Sequence record: MZ501058
Strand: one strand, 5' to 3'
Length of the DNA: 64,000 bases
Source of the DNA: Escherichia phage DaisyDussoix
The stretch's first letter is position 1. Each line of letters starts with the position of its first letter. Positions 19,081-29,029 of the stretch are shown here, in pieces. A model generated the notes under the pieces. The model was not told the DNA's origin. It saw only the letters and a list, made by a program, of their open reading frames with translations, and made no database searches. The translations under genes and the position numbers were made by a program.

Positions 19081-19920
19081 AACAGCGAGCCGATTACGCT
19101 GAGTGAGTTTAGTGATTCCTAATAGGATAGCTATCCCACTGAATAGAGTCGGTGAGTTGGAGACTAGTAAGTACTCTTAGAGAGGCTACGAGCTAACGCT
19201 TATTGCTATTGATAGGGAACTGAAAATCTGCGGAAAACTCGGGAGCTGTCCCGAAATCTCGTAAACTCTTCTCTAGTTTATGTTAGTGGGGTGTCGAACT
19301 GACTTATGTGATAACACTGCCGTCCTAGTATAAACGGTAATATCAAACCGTAACTGGTGGAAGATGCAGGTTCGAATCCTGCGGTCGGAAAGAATCAGAT
19401 AACTCGGGCTTATACCGGATAAGCATTCGCTGCTGTAGTACATACTATGACGGTTCAGGAGGTACGCCGCCTGATCAGTATTAGGTTAGAATCGAAACAG
19501 CTAAACCACGAGGAAACCTGACGGCCTCAATCAAACTCGGAACTCGGGATCACTGCCTAGTGTGTGCCCCGTTTAACCTGAGACTAGGCATCCAGCTTCG
19601 CATCGAAAATCGGAGGTGCGATTCTAACAGACCGCGTGAATATGAGAGTGGGAAATGCTGACATGAGAGATGTCACTAATGGTGCCCAATAGTACAGGTA
19701 ATTCGCGATAATTCCTGTTGAGCGGCAGCAGTAGGCTGGGAGTCATGACCTAAGCCTAACCGAGTTCTTCACATACGGAGAACATAACCACAAAGTCACC
19801 CTGACTTAAACTGGAGGATATTATCTGACGGAAGGGCTGCAGAGCTTAATCTGAGGGGGCTGACCCTACCTACCGTCGGGTATCTTTAAGAGCTTTTATA
19901 AGAGTTCTTAAAAATACCTA
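19081..19920 (+). ncRNA. ORF-free transcribed block, candidate stable structured RNA(s) of unknown class
   Basis: 840 nt without ORF of 60 aa or more, directly downstream of a consensus T5-type promoter; many GC hairpins (GGATAGCTATCC, CGGGAGCTGTCCCG, GCCTAGT...ACTAGGC) and a tRNA-like T-arm at 19366-19382 that lacks a pairing acceptor strand. Confidence 0.3.
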
Positions 19921-21911: not shown

Positions 21912-21986
21912 GGTTCTCAAGCTCATATGGTATGAGCACCCAGCTCATAACTGGAAGGTACGTAGGTTCGAATCCTCGGGGAGCCA
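21912..21986 (+). tRNA. tRNA-Met or Ile2 (anticodon CAU)
   Basis: Acceptor GGTTCTC/GGGAGCC with G-U pairs, D-stem GCTC/GAGC, loop CTCATAA, CCA; T-stem pairs imperfectly. Confidence 0.7.
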
Positions 21987-25177: not shown

Positions 25178-25205
25178 CCAAATTAATTTAGTATGAGAAT
25201 ATACT

Positions 25206-25553
25206 ATGCGTAATGCAAAAGAAGAGCTGTTACTTGCCTTAAAAAATACTAATTCTGAAGTTAAATGTATTAAAATAGAATTCGGGTATTATGGGGATAA
25301 AAAAGTTTGGGTATTGCCTTTAGGTTACACAGAAGAAGATATTGAGGATTTTCTTAATAACCTAGACTTTAAATATGACTCTGGATATGGTGGACAATTA
25401 CTTTATGGTAATGTATGGTTTGCCGATGGAACTTGGTTAGAACGTGGTGAATATGATGGTTCTGAATGGTGGGAATATAAGGCTACACCAGCAATCCCAG
25501 AAGAATGCCGAACAATTAATGGTGAAGTAGATAATACTTTACGGTTAAACTAA
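25206..25553 (+). CDS. hypothetical protein
   Basis: 115 aa ORF. Confidence 0.5.
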   Translation: MRNAKEELLLALKNTNSEVKCIKIEFGYYGDKKVWVLPLGYTEEDIEDFLNNLDFKYDSGYGGQLLYGNVWFADGTWLERGEYDGSEWWEYKATPAIPEECRTINGEVDNTLRLN

Positions 25554-25561
25554 TAAAATTT

Positions 25562-25672
25562 CAGTGCAGAACACGGAGCTAGCAATTAGGAAGTGCTGAC
25601 TCATGATAAGCTGCCTATGTACTTGCAAAGCGGTCGTGTCCAAGACTCGGACTCTTGCACTGAAAACAATCA
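25562..25672 (+). ncRNA. structured RNA candidate closed by 8-bp terminal stem
   Basis: 5' TCAGTGCA pairs with 3' TGCACTGA enclosing about 95 nt; no ORF; no canonical T-loop. Confidence 0.3.
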
Positions 25673-25674
25673 AA

Positions 25675-25788
25675 CATTCTAGCGTGGTTGATGGGGAAAC
25701 CAGCTTGGCTAGGGCAGAAGCTCGTTCGATTCGAGTGAAAGAATGGTTCTCGTAAGTCCGCACAAGTGATAATAGGTTCGAGTCCTGT
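25675..25788 (+). ncRNA. tRNA-like structured RNA candidate (two T-arm-like hairpins, 7-bp closing stem)
   Basis: 5' ATTCTAG pairs with 3' CTAGAAT; internal CTCG-TTCGATT-CGAG and ATAGG-TTCGAGT-CCTGT hairpins; too long for a tRNA. Confidence 0.3.
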
Positions 25789-25805
25789 CTAGAATGACAC
25801 TATAA

Positions 25806-25930
25806 AGTTTACTTATTATGTAGGTTCCGATAGATCGGAGGGTCTATTCTGGCATTTAAGAGAGGTCTCGCAAACGTCTTTGTCAGCCGTGGGGTTGGTA
25901 GCCTCCAGGTGGCCTACACAATAAGTAAAT
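25806..25930 (+). ncRNA. structured RNA candidate closed by about 16-bp terminal stem
   Basis: 5' TTACTTATTATGTAGG pairs with 3' CCTACACAATAAGTAA with one mismatch; no ORF. Confidence 0.3.
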
Positions 25931-25945
25931 TTATTAAAAATTCAT

Positions 25946-25974
25946 TTGCTATTCTGCTTTATTATCTGTATAAT
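25946..25974 (+). promoter_or_regulatory. T5-type early promoter (HNH gene 26007)
   Basis: AAAATTCATTTGCT ... TCTGTATAATATATTTTATAAAGTGAAGAG. Confidence 0.7.
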
Positions 25975-26006
25975 ATATTTTATAAAGTGAAGAGAAGGAA
26001 AGCTAA

Positions 26007-26582
26007 ATGGAAGGATTTAAGCCAATACCCGAGTATCCAGAATACTTAGTATCTGAGAAGGGAGAAATATACTCTACTATCAGTAATAAATATCTAAAAC
26101 CTACTATAAACGGAAAAGGCTATTACCACTTTGCAGTACGTGAAGATACTAATAAGTATAAATGGCTCCAGCTGCACAGAGTCATATGCAGAGTTTATGG
26201 CAATCTCCCCTCTTTAGATAGTGAAATGGAAGTAGATCATAATGATCGTAATAAGCTTAATATACTCCCTAGTAATTTAGTTGCCAGAGAGAAGAAAGAT
26301 CATTATGATAAAACTACACTGGAGAGAGGAAAAACTATAGGGGGCACTAGATGTATAGTCTGTAATAAGAGGATACACTCTGGTCGAGAATACTGTATAA
26401 ATTGCAGCCCAGTTAAACAGACTAAATCTCCAGAGATTACCGCAGAACAGATAGAATATTGGGTATCAAAGTATTCCTGGACTAGAGCTGCAAAAGAGTT
26501 AAATTTATCTGATAATGGTCTACGAAAACGGTATACTAAATTAACAGGTAAATCCCCAAAAGAAATTAAAAAATCAGGGTAA
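26007..26582 (+). CDS. HNH homing endonuclease, family B
   Basis: 191 aa; N-terminal PEYPEYLVSEKGEIYS module, EVDHNDRNKLN HNH motif, CxxC...CxxC Zn site; paralogs at 27903 and 29338. Confidence 0.85.
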   Translation: MEGFKPIPEYPEYLVSEKGEIYSTISNKYLKPTINGKGYYHFAVREDTNKYKWLQLHRVICRVYGNLPSLDSEMEVDHNDRNKLNILPSNLVAREKKDHYDKTTLERGKTIGGTRCIVCNKRIHSGREYCINCSPVKQTKSPEITAEQIEYWVSKYSWTRAAKELNLSDNGLRKRYTKLTGKSPKEIKKSG

Positions 26583-26649
26583 GGGCGATAAGGTACGCCA
26601 CCTCGTTTGGGGTGAGGAAATCTTTAGAGTTCGAGTCCTGCCGCACTGA
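26575..26649 (+). tRNA. tRNA-Pro (anticodon UGG)-like; acceptor and T-stem imperfect
   Basis: D-arm GGCG-ATAAGGTA-CGCC, stem CCTCG/TGAGG, loop TTTGGGG, CCA present; acceptor has two mismatches; overlaps HNH ORF end. Confidence 0.45.
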
Positions 26650-26658
26650 CCAAACAAC

Positions 26659-28660: not shown

Positions 28661-29029
28661 CCAAATCTTGAAGTATGCCGAAATCGGTAGACGGGGCTGC
28701 CTAAAAGGTTTATAGGGAACATCCACTCCCTACAACATACCTCATAAAGCGGCTGAGATAAATGGTCTATCTCGTGAAGGTTCAAGTCCTTCTGCTTCTT
28801 GATACATCTATGGCTCAAAGTGTAACGGTGCTATTTGATGCTCTTGGTAAGACTTCCCCGACATGCGTTCGGGAGTAAGCTGCTAAGACTAGAGTAGAAG
28901 AGTTTCTGAGAGCCGCCACAATTGAAAATTCGTACTCGTCTTGAGCTGCGCGCAATAGGAGATAACTTGATTAGTATTCTAGAACATGCTAATTGAGGAA
29001 GGTTTCGCTAACCCTGCGAGTTTTCAATT

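What the first reader, a model, noticed from the sequence alone, without database searches (positions are those of the whole stretch)
25562..25930. Three consecutive non-tRNA structured RNA candidates closed by long terminal stems inside the tRNA cluster
Each element is roughly 100-125 nt, is closed by an 8 to 16 bp terminal helix, lacks an ORF and does not fold as a canonical cloverleaf. The middle one carries two tRNA-like T-arm hairpins. Their placement among tRNAs suggests processing from the same polycistronic transcripts. They could be stable small RNAs, tRNA-derived decoys, or tRNA-like regulators.
Basis: seen in the sequence. Interest (0 to 1): 0.65.

Follow-up and report, generated by a model that had tools for sequence, protein, structure and literature searches.

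The report
T5 stable RNAs in tRNA cluster
The three hairpin-closed elements are real: two are the long-annotated but functionally unexplained phage T5 stable RNAs "RNA2" (a tRNA-shaped RNA) and "RNA IV", and the third is an unannotated, equally conserved neighbour; RNA2 also belongs to a large phage-only RNA family with a second tRNA-like "elbow" where the anticodon should be.

Summary
Three non-coding units, each closed by a terminal helix, sit between an ORF and promoter P13a in a T5-like tRNA cluster.

- **Element 2 (25675-25799)** is the ortholog of T5/BF23 "RNA2", annotated as a tRNA-like stable RNA of unknown function.
- **Element 3 (25805-25932)** is the ortholog of "RNA IV", also annotated as a stable RNA of unknown function. 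So two of the three are already known.
- **Element 1 (25559-25665)** is annotated nowhere. It is as conserved as RNA2 (7.5% polymorphic sites against 44% at neighbouring synonymous sites), but its inner fold cannot be verified.

What goes beyond the annotations:

- RNA2 belongs to a family of at least 48 lineages in T5-like phages, Acinetobacter T4-like phages and large uncultured phage contigs.
- In a pattern scan of one genome for each of 185,579 species, only two contigs held it.
- Rfam 15 has no matching family.
- Covariation strongly supports a complete tRNA body. The anticodon loop is replaced by a conserved three-way junction holding a second T-arm, an AUGGU loop and a GUAA bulge.
- The 3' side of that junction is identical to the anticodon-arm half of phage tRNA-Tyr.

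RNA IV has a significant fold and compensatory changes. The functions of all three remain unknown. A non-decoding tRNA mimic or decoy is my best inference for RNA2.

The parts
25559..25665 (+). Element 1: a 107-nt conserved non-coding unit closed by a perfect 10-bp stem (25559-25568 / 25656-25665). It is not annotated in any record seen, and its inner fold is unresolved.
   Evidence: - Inverted repeat.
- 218 phage records carry it, all at 90% identity or more.
- 7.5% polymorphic sites, against 44% at third codon positions of the adjacent ORF and 44% in the 9-nt spacer to element 2.
- In TrudiGerster, homology begins 3 nt before the stem even though the upstream gene is different.
- Fold z = -1.0.
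- 3 of the 4 substitutions that fall in predicted stems disrupt a pair, and the TrudiGerster variant folds differently.
25675..25799 (+). Element 2: ortholog of T5/BF23 RNA2 (125 nt). It is a tRNA-shaped RNA with an expanded anticodon arm.
   Evidence: - The T5 and BF23 annotations map onto it.
- It scores 131 bits with family model R1.
- On 59 distinct sequences, 89% of cells are paired against 57% in shuffles, with 604 double-change cells.
25675..25682 (+). RNA2 acceptor-stem 5' strand. It pairs with 25789-25796. The 3' tail is G-ACA (25796-25799), not CCA.
   Evidence: - All 7 acceptor pairs show compensatory changes.
- All 23 tRNAs in the window encode CCA.
25685..25702 (+). RNA2 D arm: a 4-5 bp stem with loop GAUGGGGA, which carries the GG of tRNA D loops.
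   Evidence: All 4 pairs covary; alignment.
25704..25709 (+). P3 5' strand, the stem in the anticodon-stem position. It pairs with 25760-25766, with A25762 bulged.
   Evidence: 5 of 6 pairs have compensatory changes.
25712..25715 (+). P4 5' strand, GGGC. It pairs with 25756-25759 (GUCC). The fourth pair covaries (C-G / U-A).
25717..25718 (+). P7 5' strand, GA. It pairs with 25750-25751 (UC).
   Evidence: - Found by the mutual-information scan.
- Pair 44-76 counts: UA 21, AU 15, GC 13.
25720..25736 (+). P5, the internal T-arm-like hairpin GCUCG-UUCGAUU-CGAGU.
   Evidence: - Loop and closing G-C pair are essentially invariant.
- Stem pairs show 21-38 double changes.
25741..25749 (+). P8 mini-hairpin: G-A-[AUGGU]-U-C, with a near-invariant pentaloop. 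The GAAA joiner lies just upstream at 25737-25740.
   Evidence: - The closing pair 68-74 is canonical in 44 of 56 sequences (UA 22, AU 15, CG 3, GU 3, GC 1) after anchor-based realignment.
- Also picked up by the mutual-information scan.
25752..25755 (+). GUAA four-nucleotide bulge between P7 and P4. Invariant in every member matched by the search patterns, which themselves required CGTAA, and in the blastn-found homologs. Together with 25756-25761 it reads GUAAGUCCGC.
   Evidence: - Invariant columns.
- GUAAAUCCGC equals positions 34-43 of genuine phage tRNA-Tyr genes.
- It matches 9 of 10 positions in E. coli tRNA-Tyr and in the window's own tRNA-Tyr.
25772..25788 (+). RNA2 canonical T arm, AUAGG-UUCGAGU-CCUGU, stacked directly on the acceptor stem.
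   Evidence: 97% of cells paired; 4 of 5 pairs have compensatory changes.
25805..25932 (+). Element 3: ortholog of T5/BF23 RNA IV together with its roughly 20-bp AU-rich closing stem. By transfer of the T5 annotation, the mature 103-nt RNA maps to about 25818-25920, so both ends lie inside that stem.
   Evidence: - Annotations.
- Fold z = -3.8.
- RNAalifold predicts 43 pairs, 6 with compensatory double changes and almost none broken.
- 405 phage records carry it.
25946..25974 (+). Promoter P13a (TTGCTA, 17 nt, TATAAT). It starts the next transcription unit and marks the 3' limit of the RNA block.
   Evidence: Promoter scan scores 10 of 12; annotated as P13a in T5 and BF23.

Best explanation
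**Shown.** The 370-nt stretch holds three separate, selectively maintained non-coding units. They lie on the tRNA strand at the end of a tRNA/ORF transcription unit.

- **The middle unit is T5 'RNA2'.** It has a complete tRNA body: a 7-8 bp acceptor stem, a D arm with GG, a stem in the anticodon-stem position, a 5-nt variable loop and a canonical T arm.
- **Its anticodon loop is replaced by a conserved module of about 48 nt.** The module consists of:
  - P4 (GGGN/NUCC);
  - a GUAA bulge;
  - P7;
  - a three-way junction carrying a second T-arm hairpin;
  - a mini-hairpin with an AUGGU loop.
- **The third unit is 'RNA IV'.** It is a three-hairpin RNA closed by a roughly 20-bp stem.
- **The first unit is an unannotated conserved element.**

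**Inferred.**

- RNA2 is cut out of the polycistronic transcript by the tRNA-maturation enzymes, because it presents a normal acceptor/T-arm/elbow.
- It cannot decode, having no 7-nt anticodon loop.
- It is probably not charged. It lacks an encoded CCA, whereas all 23 neighbouring tRNAs have one.
- The GG of the AUGGU loop probably docks on the internal T loop. That would build a second tRNA-like 'elbow' at the tip, next to an exposed GUA-A that copies the 3' half of the tRNA-Tyr anticodon arm.
- The most likely role is a non-decoding tRNA mimic. It would bind, and so titrate or scaffold, a tRNA-recognising protein, for example a host tRNA-targeting defence nuclease or a processing or modification enzyme. 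I put this at about 0.3.
- RNA IV is probably released by double-strand-specific cleavage in its long stem. Its function is unknown.
For: **Identity.** The region is 94.8-97.7% identical to T5-like phages. The GenBank features rna2 and rnaIV map onto elements 2 and 3.

**RNA2 structure.**
- RNAalifold and hand alignment.
- On 59 distinct sequences, 89.2% of cells are paired against 56.8% in shuffles (0 of 500 reach it).
- There are 604 double-change cells against 184 in shuffles.
- The covariation score is 0.769, against 0.07-0.13 for slid partners.
- Extra covarying pairs are 44-76 and 68-74.

**tRNA body.** Ordinary tRNAs match the same model end to end at 37 bits or less. Family members score 53-131 bits.

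**Breadth.**
- Among cultured phages: Demerecviridae genera and Acinetobacter phages 133 and Acj9.
- In uncultured material: viral and metagenomic contigs up to 363 kb, giving 48 lineages below 85% identity.
- In a pattern scan of one genome for each of 185,579 species, only 2 of the 30 stretches that matched are true members. Both are MAG contigs of 167 and 330 kb.

**Context.** Same-strand tRNAs lie within 2 kb in 40 of 48 lineages. No conserved protein neighbour was found.

**No CCA.**

**tRNA-Tyr half-arm identity.**

**RNA IV.** Fold z = -3.8; 6 compensatory pairs.

**Element 1.** Purifying selection and discrete boundaries.

**Background that makes a host-interaction role plausible.**
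- Phage tRNAs counter tRNA-cleaving defences, and T5 tRNA-Tyr rescues retron Eco7 toxicity (as summarised in PMC10644984).
- A SNP in the analogous T4-type rnaD was repeatedly selected on a semi-permissive host (PMC12685909).
Against: - No experiment or tool used here addresses function, binding partners, aminoacylation or actual RNA ends.
- The elbow-mimic contact (GG with the T loop) involves invariant bases, so covariation cannot test it.
- The invariance of CGUAA is partly built into the search patterns. The blastn-found homologs share it independently.
- The tRNA-Tyr resemblance is a post-hoc observation. tRNA-Cys reaches 9 of 10.
- About 8 of 60 members do encode NCCA, so charging is not excluded.
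- No conserved partner gene points to a mechanism.
- For element 1 there is no annotation, no covariation and no significant fold.
- RNA IV's compensatory changes all come from one lineage.
Confidence: 0.6

Rival explanations
1. The elements act only in cis. They would be processing, termination or stabilising structures for the polycistronic tRNA transcript: an RNase P or RNase III entry site, a 3' protective hairpin before promoter P13a. They would have no function as free RNAs.
For: - They sit at the very end of a transcription unit, just upstream of P13a.
- RNA IV's invariant long stem looks like a double-strand RNase site, and the annotated mature ends fall inside it.
- Element 1 directly precedes RNA2 and is known only as DNA conservation.
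Against: - A cis signal does not need a 48-nt module conserved nearly base for base across T5-like, T4-like and jumbo-phage contigs while the surrounding tRNA body drifts with compensatory changes.
- Family members occur at many different positions inside tRNA arrays, not only at operon ends.
- The T5 and BF23 records call RNA2 and RNA IV 'stable RNA'.
Confidence: 0.15
2. RNA2 is a working, chargeable tRNA variant, for example a tRNA-Tyr derivative with an insertion. It would take part in translation or in another aminoacyl-tRNA-dependent reaction.
For: - It has a full tRNA body.
- GUA-A plus the 3' stem strand is identical to tRNA-Tyr positions 34-43.
- Some members encode NCCA.
- The base after the acceptor stem is A in roughly half of the aligned members (tail counts).
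Against: - There is no 7-nt anticodon loop. G78-A81 are a bulge flanked by two covarying helices.
- The arm is about 8 bp longer than a tRNA anticodon arm and ends in a three-way junction, which would not fit a decoding site.
- The position corresponding to U33 is C and is paired.
- ARAGORN and the Rfam tRNA model reject it.
- Most members lack CCA, even in a phage whose 23 tRNAs all encode it.
- Carrier phages keep a normal tRNA-Tyr as well.
Confidence: 0.07
3. The module is not an elbow mimic but a receptor or aptamer. The T loop and the AUGGU loop would form a T-loop pair that binds the elbow of another tRNA, as in T-box stem I, RNase P or the L1 stalk. Alternatively the module binds a small ligand or a phage protein. 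In either case the tRNA body serves only as a processing and stability scaffold.
For: - Conservation is concentrated in the module while the scaffold varies.
- GNRA-type sequences (GUAA, GAAA) and a T loop are typical tertiary-contact motifs. This rests on my own knowledge.
- tRNA scaffolds are known to stabilise inserted RNAs in E. coli (engineered tRNA scaffolds, from my own knowledge).
Against: - The internal hairpin is a textbook T arm (5-bp stem, UUCGAUU loop, G-C closing pair), and AUGGU resembles a D-loop segment. That is the composition of an elbow rather than of the known double-T-loop receptors.
- No partner gene was found.
- Nothing here tests binding.
Confidence: 0.13
4. Element 1 is not an RNA gene. 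It would be a chance hairpin in a leader or spacer, a DNA-level site such as a homing-endonuclease target or recombination site, or a tiny ORF.
For: - A 10-bp inverted repeat is expected by chance several times per window.
- Fold z = -1.0.
- Substitutions break predicted inner pairs.
- It is not annotated as a stable RNA in the curated T5 and BF23 records that list five others.
- A 29-aa GTG ORF overlaps it.
Against: - Polymorphism is six-fold lower than at adjacent synonymous sites and in the 9-nt spacer.
- The conservation block begins and ends with the terminal stem, even where the upstream gene differs.
- The short ORF runs into RNA2's acceptor stem, and its variable sites are not concentrated at third positions (my reading).
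Confidence: 0.3

Closest known systems
Bacteriophage T5 / BF23 RNA2 and RNA IV (GenBank NC_005859, AY692264, NC_042564 misc_RNA features)
   Same: Orthologous sequences with about 96-97% identity over the block. Same order (ORF, [element 1], RNA2, RNA IV, promoter P13a), same lengths, same strand as the tRNAs.
   Different: - Nothing differs for elements 2 and 3. The records give no structure, family or function.
- Element 1 is not a feature in those records.
- BF23 and many Epseptimavirus phages have a tRNA-Gly between RNA2 and RNA IV. This window and T5 do not.
Phage T4 species 1 and 2 RNAs (rnaC, rnaD)
   Same: Small stable RNAs of about 120-140 nt at the end of a phage tRNA cluster, co-transcribed with tRNAs, of unknown function (PMC3014915). 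rnaC also ends in a T arm plus acceptor-like strand.
   Different: - There is no sequence or model homology.
- rnaC matches the RNA2 model only at the weak level of ordinary tRNAs (19 bits), and rnaD not at all.
- T4 lacks the GGG...T-arm...AUGGU...CGUAA module.
Canonical tRNA (Rfam RF00005)
   Same: Acceptor stem, D arm with GG, 5-nt variable loop and a GTTCRA T arm directly stacked on the acceptor. Genomic placement is inside tRNA arrays.
   Different: - The anticodon loop is replaced by a 48-nt three-way junction, and the arm is lengthened.
- It is not recognised by ARAGORN or RF00005.
- It usually has no encoded CCA.
Bacterial Y-RNA-like YrlA and the tRNA-like domain of tmRNA
   Same: Non-decoding RNAs that copy the tRNA acceptor/T-arm/D-loop shape in order to engage tRNA-binding proteins. 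This rests on my own knowledge. Some jumbo phages carry Ro/TROVE, whose cellular counterpart works with a tRNA-like partner RNA (PMC7824862).
   Different: - No Rfam YrlA or tmRNA match, even at E<=10. ARAGORN finds no tmRNA.
- RNA2's ends are at the acceptor, as in tRNA. By my recollection YrlA's ends lie in the Ro-binding stem; that topology was not checked here.
- It has no tag ORF and no pseudoknots.
Engineered 'tRNA scaffold' for recombinant RNA expression (from my own knowledge)
   Same: A foreign structured RNA replaces the anticodon loop of a tRNA, so that the chimera is processed and stabilised like a tRNA.
   Different: That is a laboratory design. Here it is a natural, conserved phage gene family whose cargo function is unknown.

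Membership tests
T5 RNA2 (annotated tRNA-like stable RNA) | Sequence orthology and synteny with the annotated misc_RNA rna2 of T5 and BF23 | tested here: met
   The annotated coordinates map to window 25675-25799. The block is 96.6% identical to T5. Model scores are 131 bits for the window, 129 for T5 and 134 for BF23.
T5 RNA2 (annotated tRNA-like stable RNA) | Accumulates as a stable RNA of about 125 nt in infected cells | not testable with these tools
   Only the GenBank notes say 'stable RNA'. No expression data were available.
T5 RNA IV (annotated stable RNA) | Sequence orthology and synteny with the annotated misc_RNA rnaIV, directly upstream of promoter P13a | tested here: met
   - Maps to window 25818-25920.
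- Salmonella phage 5, which also annotates rnaIV, is 96.2% identical over element 3.
- T5 itself is 96.6% identical over the three-element block.
- The promoter lies at 25946-25974.
Canonical tRNA | Cloverleaf with a 5-bp anticodon stem and 7-nt anticodon loop, recognised by tRNA detectors | tested here: not met
   ARAGORN and Rfam RF00005 give no call in 25181-26658. The anticodon-loop position holds a 48-nt covarying module.
Canonical tRNA | Acceptor stem, D arm with GG, and a T arm with a GTTCRA loop | tested here: met
   Covarying helices 1, 2 and 9. Ordinary tRNAs align end to end with the same model.
Canonical tRNA | 3' CCA end, encoded as in the phage's own tRNAs | tested here: not met
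   23 of 23 tRNAs in the window encode CCA, whereas RNA2 has G-ACA. About 8 of 60 family members have NCCA.
tmRNA | tRNA-like domain plus tag-peptide ORF and pseudoknots | tested here: not met
   ARAGORN finds no tmRNA. Rfam has no tmRNA match at E<=10. 125 nt is too short for a tag ORF.
Y-RNA-like (YrlA) / Ro-associated RNA | Match to the Rfam Y-RNA-like models; 5' and 3' ends forming the Ro-binding stem | tested here: not met
   No Rfam match at E<=10. The ends form a tRNA acceptor stem followed directly by the T arm. No conserved neighbouring protein cluster was found in a ±4 kb scan of 48 lineages; the clusters were not annotated.
T4 rnaC / rnaD | Sequence or structural homology to the T4 species 1 and 2 RNAs | tested here: not met
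   No meaningful alignment. The R1 model gives 19 bits on the rnaC 3' part and nothing on rnaD.
Protein-coding small gene | An ORF conserved across homologs with a coding substitution pattern | tested here: not met
   Only ORFs of 72 aa or less are present. Across the family the substitutions are compensatory in helices. Variable sites in element 1 are not concentrated at third positions.

The most novel reading that the evidence does not exclude
RNA2-type RNAs would be a widespread, phage-specific and so far uncatalogued class of 'two-elbow' tRNA mimics.

- A tRNA body ensures processing and stability.
- The tip displays a second T-loop/GG elbow beside an exposed GUA-A, which copies the 3' half of the tRNA-Tyr anticodon arm.
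- This would let the RNA trap or mis-direct host tRNA-targeting immune nucleases, for example tRNA-Tyr-directed effectors such as retron Eco7 PtuAB or colicin-E5-like enzymes.
- It would be an RNA-based counter-defence acting alongside the phage's own tRNAs.
- Element 1 and RNA IV would be further members of the same RNA toolkit.
Probability: 0.12. Interest if true: 0.8.

Novelty: already known. Interest (0 to 1): 0.42.

Why it matters
- **An old open question.** T5 RNA2 and RNA IV, like T4 rnaC and rnaD, are stable RNAs in phage tRNA clusters with no assigned function. PMC3014915 says this for T4, and the GenBank notes say it for T5.
- **What is added for RNA2.** It is not a T5 oddity but a deeply conserved, almost exclusively phage-borne family with a precise, covariation-backed architecture. 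That turns the question into a testable one. The invariant bases to mutate are defined: the GUAA bulge, the AUGGU loop and the internal T loop. So are the scaffold, the natural variants and a covariance model that could seed an Rfam family.
- **If it is a tRNA mimic aimed at host factors.** It would add an RNA layer to the current picture in which phage tRNAs counter tRNA-cleaving defences (PMC10644984).
- **For annotation.** Many GenBank records place 'hypothetical protein' CDSs over these RNAs. Those calls are probably spurious.

Tried and rejected
1. **Rfam at a permissive threshold.** It found no family for any of the three elements.
2. **T4 rnaC and rnaD as homologs.** Rejected.
3. **tmRNA or mini-tmRNA idea.** This was prompted by a resemblance to the E. 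coli tmRNA PK1 region recalled from memory. ARAGORN and Rfam give it no support, there is no ORF, and I dropped it.
4. **CUCGUAA as a 7-nt anticodon loop (Thr CGU).** Rejected. The second base varies (U, A or C) and covaries with position 44, and C77 pairs with G43.
5. **A D-arm-like pairing GCUU/AAGC at 25703-25721.** Rejected, because it is not conserved. CUUG pairs with CAAG downstream instead.
7. **Search for a conserved neighbouring protein.** None found; the best cluster occurs in 4 of 48 lineages.
8. **Paralogues of the three elements elsewhere in the window.** None, apart from T-arm matches to tRNAs.
9. **Covariation for element 1.** Impossible: all 218 homologs are at least 90% identical, and the few substitutions do not support the predicted inner helices.
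10. **Literature searches.** Queries for the T5 stable RNAs, BF23, tRNA-like phage RNAs and decoys found no paper describing RNA2 or RNA IV structure or function. The original 1980s descriptions are not in the searchable library.
11. **Resemblance of CGUAAU to the 23S rRNA GTPase-centre loop.** Considered from memory and judged coincidental, because the topology is different.
Full report
**What the window is**

- The region is 95-98% identical to many Tequintavirus (T5-like) genomes.
- It lies in the phage tRNA cluster. ARAGORN finds 23 tRNAs between 19.9 and 31.3 kb, all on the + strand and none between 25181 and 26658.
- Rfam reports only tRNAs in the window at gathering scores. It reports nothing in 25562-25930 even at E<=10.

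**Checking the observation**

The three terminal helices exist at the stated places:

| Element | Helix arms | Length | Complementarity |
|---|---|---|---|
| 1 | 25559-68 / 25656-65 | 10 nt | perfect |
| 2 | 25675-82 / 25789-96 | 8 nt | perfect |
| 3 | 25805-24 / 25913-32 | 20 nt | 90% |

- Only short ORFs of 72 aa or less overlap the region.
- The two T-arm-like hairpins in the middle element are present.
- These features alone are weak evidence.
  - Ten-base inverted repeats 40-140 nt apart give about 10 k-mer hits per 64 kb in Markov shuffles; 29 are observed.
  - Only element 3 folds better than shuffled sequence: z = -3.8, against -1.0 for element 1 and +0.45 for element 2.
- The decisive evidence is comparative.

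**Identity of elements 2 and 3**

- Three records annotate misc_RNA features at exactly these positions: the T5 reference (NC_005859), the T5 st0 record (AY692264) and the BF23 tRNA-region record (NC_042564).
  - RNA2 is annotated as 'tRNA-like stable RNA with unknown functions', 125 nt. It maps to window 25675-25799.
  - RNAIV is annotated as 'stable RNA with unknown functions', 103 nt. It maps to window 25818-25920.
  - Promoter P13a follows. The scan finds TTGCTA, 17 nt, TATAAT at 25946-25974.
- The same records list RNA3, RNA2H and, in BF23, a 784-nt RNAX.
- Two of the three 'candidates' are therefore already-known T5 stable RNAs whose function was never established.
- Element 1 is not a feature in any record I saw.

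**Element 2 (RNA2): anatomy**

*Finding relatives.*
- A sensitive blastn showed that element 2 is conserved far beyond the T5 group. It occurs in Epseptimavirus, Yersinia phiR2-01, Erwinia KEY, Klebsiella Sugarlandvirus, Serratia Slocum and the T4-like Acinetobacter phage 133. In phage 133 it fills an unannotated 105-nt gap between tRNA-Gly and tRNA-Cys.
- Acinetobacter phage Acj9 has it too.
- Pattern scans built on the invariant core recovered many divergent copies in viral and metagenomic contigs of up to 363 kb.
- The same specific pattern hit 30 stretches in one genome for each of 185,579 bacterial and archaeal species.
  - 28 of these are chance matches inside coding sequence.
  - The two true ones lie on MAG contigs of 167 and 330 kb.
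  - The family is thus essentially phage-borne.

*Model and alignment.* I built a covariance model from 22 sequences with a hand-drawn structure.
- Family members score 53-131 bits.
- Ordinary tRNAs in the same loci align end to end at 37 bits or less. That itself shows the scaffold is a tRNA body.
- Two variants of about 120 nt score about 40-44 bits.

*Covariation on 59 distinct sequences*.

| Measure | Observed | Control |
|---|---|---|
| Cells forming standard pairs | 89.2% | 56.8% after shuffling (0 of 500 reach it) |
| Cells with changes on both sides | 604 | 184 after shuffling |
| Covariation score | 0.769 | 0.07-0.13 for slid partners |

Every helix has compensatory pairs.

*Extra pairs.* A mutual-information scan found two further covarying pairs that I had not modelled.
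- Pair 44-76: UA 21, AU 15, GC 13.
- Pair 68-74: canonical in 44 of 56 sequences after anchor-based realignment.

*Resulting architecture in window coordinates.*

| Feature | Coordinates | Notes |
|---|---|---|
| Acceptor stem | 25675-82 / 25789-96 | |
| D arm | 25685-702 | loop GAUGGGGA |
| P3 | 25704-09 / 25760-66 | in the anticodon-stem position |
| P4 | 25712-15 / 25756-59 | GGGN/NUCC |
| GUAA bulge | 25752-55 | four nucleotides, opposite A25716 |
| P7 | 25717-18 / 25750-51 | |
| P5 | 25720-36 | textbook T arm: 5 bp, UUCGAUU loop |
| Joiner | 25737-40 | GAAA |
| P8 | 25741-49 | mini-hairpin closing an AUGGU loop |
| Variable loop | 25767-71 | 5 nt |
| T arm | 25772-88 | canonical |
| 3' tail | 25796-99 | G-ACA |

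P7, P5 and P8 form the three-way junction.

It is a cloverleaf whose anticodon loop has been replaced by a conserved 48-nt module.

**Element 2: what can be inferred about function**

- *Context.* The family's only constant context is tRNA arrays.
  - 40 of 48 lineages (below 85% identity) have same-strand tRNAs within 2 kb.
  - None has opposite-strand tRNAs, and spacings of 1-10 nt are common.
  - No protein family is a consistent neighbour; the best cluster occurs in 4 of 48 lineages.
- *CCA.* All 23 tRNAs of the window encode CCA, but RNA2 does not. Only about 8 of 60 family members do.
- *tRNA-Tyr resemblance.* The family's conserved 3' side, GUAAAUCCGC, is identical to positions 34-43 (anticodon GUA, A37, A38 and the 3' stem strand) of genuine phage tRNA-Tyr genes.
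  - Acinetobacter phage 133 and locus L080 match 10 of 10.
  - E. coli tRNA-Tyr and the window's own tRNA-Tyr match 9 of 10.
  - The window's own RNA2 reads GUAAGUCCGC, one base away from that consensus.
  - Tyr is the best-matching isotype among 646 phage tRNAs, with Cys second at 9 of 10.
  - Yet these bases are not in a 7-nt loop. C77 and N76 pair with G43 and N44.
- *My inference, not shown.*
  - The tRNA body recruits the tRNA-maturation enzymes.
  - The RNA neither decodes nor, probably, is charged.
  - The GG of AUGGU docks on the internal T loop as G18/G19 do in tRNA, forming a second elbow.
  - The whole acts as a tRNA mimic for some tRNA-binding factor.
- *Background.*
  - Phage tRNAs are now thought to offset tRNA-cleaving defences, and T5 tRNA-Tyr rescues retron Eco7 toxicity (summarised in PMC10644984).
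  - A SNP in the analogous T4-type rnaD arose convergently during adaptation to a semi-permissive host (PMC12685909).
  - This makes a host-interaction role plausible, but nothing here tests it.
- *Rivals.* A cis-only processing element, a chargeable tRNA variant, and an elbow receptor or aptamer on a tRNA scaffold are weighed in the rival list.

**Element 3 (RNA IV)**

- 405 phage records carry it, down to 75% identity.
- I aligned eleven sequences, including the divergent Salmonella phage 1-29 and Escherichia phage TrudiGerster.
  - RNAalifold predicts 43 pairs with almost no broken cells.
  - Six pairs have changes on both sides. These lie in the closing stem (G-C to A-U), in hairpin 1 (U-A to C-G, G-C to C-G) and in hairpin 2.
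  - All six come from one lineage, so this is moderate support rather than overwhelming.
- With z = -3.8 and the 'stable RNA' annotation, it is a genuine structured RNA.
- Its outer AU-rich stem of about 20 bp is invariant, and the annotated mature ends fall inside it. That suggests release by a double-strand-specific RNase. This is an inference.
- It has no tRNA-like features and no Rfam family.

**Element 1**

- It occurs in 218 records, all at 90% identity or more.
- It stays at 94% identity in TrudiGerster, where RNA IV has dropped to 75%.
- Polymorphic sites among 15 distinct T5-group sequences:

| Segment | Polymorphic sites |
|---|---|
| tRNA-Asp | 3.9% |
| Element 1 | 7.5% |
| RNA2 | 7.2% |
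| RNA IV | 13.6% |
| Adjacent ORF, third codon positions | 44% |
| 9-nt spacer between element 1 and RNA2 | 44% |

- In TrudiGerster, where a tRNA-Lys replaces the upstream ORF, homology starts 3 nt before the terminal stem.
- Element 1 is therefore a discrete unit under purifying selection.
- It has too little variation for covariation analysis.
  - 3 of the 4 substitutions in predicted inner stems disrupt a pair.
  - Its fold is not significant.
  - The TrudiGerster variant folds differently.
- Only the terminal stem and a small 3' hairpin are consistent across variants.
- Whether it is a free RNA, a leader of RNA2 or a DNA-level site is open.

**Comparison with known systems**

- The closest known things are the T5 and BF23 RNAs themselves.
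- T4 rnaC and rnaD are analogous in place and mystery (PMC3014915) but not homologous.
- Canonical tRNA membership fails on the anticodon loop, on detector calls and on CCA.
- tmRNA and YrlA membership fail on the Rfam and ARAGORN scans; the YrlA topology difference is from memory.
- In working principle, RNA2 resembles other tRNA mimics and, formally, the engineered tRNA scaffold.

**Verdict**

- Two elements are already-known T5 stable RNAs, and the third is a conserved unannotated neighbour.
- As a discovery the finding is not new.
- The family breadth, the phage specificity and the covariation-backed 'tRNA with a second elbow' architecture of RNA2 were not in Rfam 15, in the annotations I saw, or in the searchable literature.
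- Together they make an old open question experimentally tractable.

Noticed in passing
window 28915-28928 / 29012-29025: A 14-bp perfect inverted repeat encloses about 85 nt immediately upstream of tRNA-His (29030). It is another non-coding element closed by a terminal stem in the tRNA cluster.
   Followed up: no
window 21912-21986 and 19319-19390: - Rfam tRNA hits that ARAGORN does not call, at 38.2 and 29.3 bits.
- The second lies upstream of tRNA-Arg. That is where BF23 annotates a 784-nt 'RNAX' stable RNA, so RNAX may contain a tRNA-like piece.
   Followed up: no
window 26007-26582 and 26583-26652: - An HNH homing-endonuclease ORF (191 aa) follows promoter P13a. In T5 that position holds the small ORF T5.066 and tRNA-Pro.
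- Right after the ORF is a degenerate tRNA-Pro-like sequence: a UGG anticodon loop, a T-arm-like GTTCGAGTCC and an ACCA end, but no matching acceptor 5' strand.
- Neither ARAGORN nor Rfam calls it.
   Followed up: partly
L328:4388-4510 (-) and L342:5110-5228 (+): - Two RNAs of about 120 nt in metagenomic tRNA clusters.
- They have the same overall architecture as RNA2 but a divergent core (for example CAGTAAGTTCC) and encoded CCA ends.
- They score 40-44 bits, between family members and tRNAs. This suggests a wider superfamily.
   Followed up: partly
L080:7915-8085 (-): An RNA2-family member of 171 nt carries an extra insertion of about 46 nt in or after the internal T-arm hairpin. This shows that part of the module tolerates expansion.
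   Followed up: no
L010:1409-1547 (-) (phage T4 rnaC): The 3' 96 nt of T4 species-1 RNA match the tRNA-body part of the RNA2 model weakly (19 bits) and end in a canonical T arm, CCGGGTTCGAATCCCGG. T4 rnaC is therefore also partly tRNA-shaped, although not homologous to RNA2.
   Followed up: partly
window 25545-25763 (- strand) and 25603-25755 (+ strand); GenBank records: Many deposited T5-like genomes annotate 'hypothetical protein' CDSs over elements 1-3. The mechanical ORFs here (72 aa on the - strand, 50 aa on the + strand) overlap covarying RNA helices, so these are probably annotation artefacts.
   Followed up: partly
L195 and L249 (viral contigs): Two adjacent T-arm-like hairpins (GGTTCGAGTCC... 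then GGTTCGACTCC...) are followed by ...AAAACTCCGCA. This may be another tRNA-derived non-coding RNA type.
   Followed up: no
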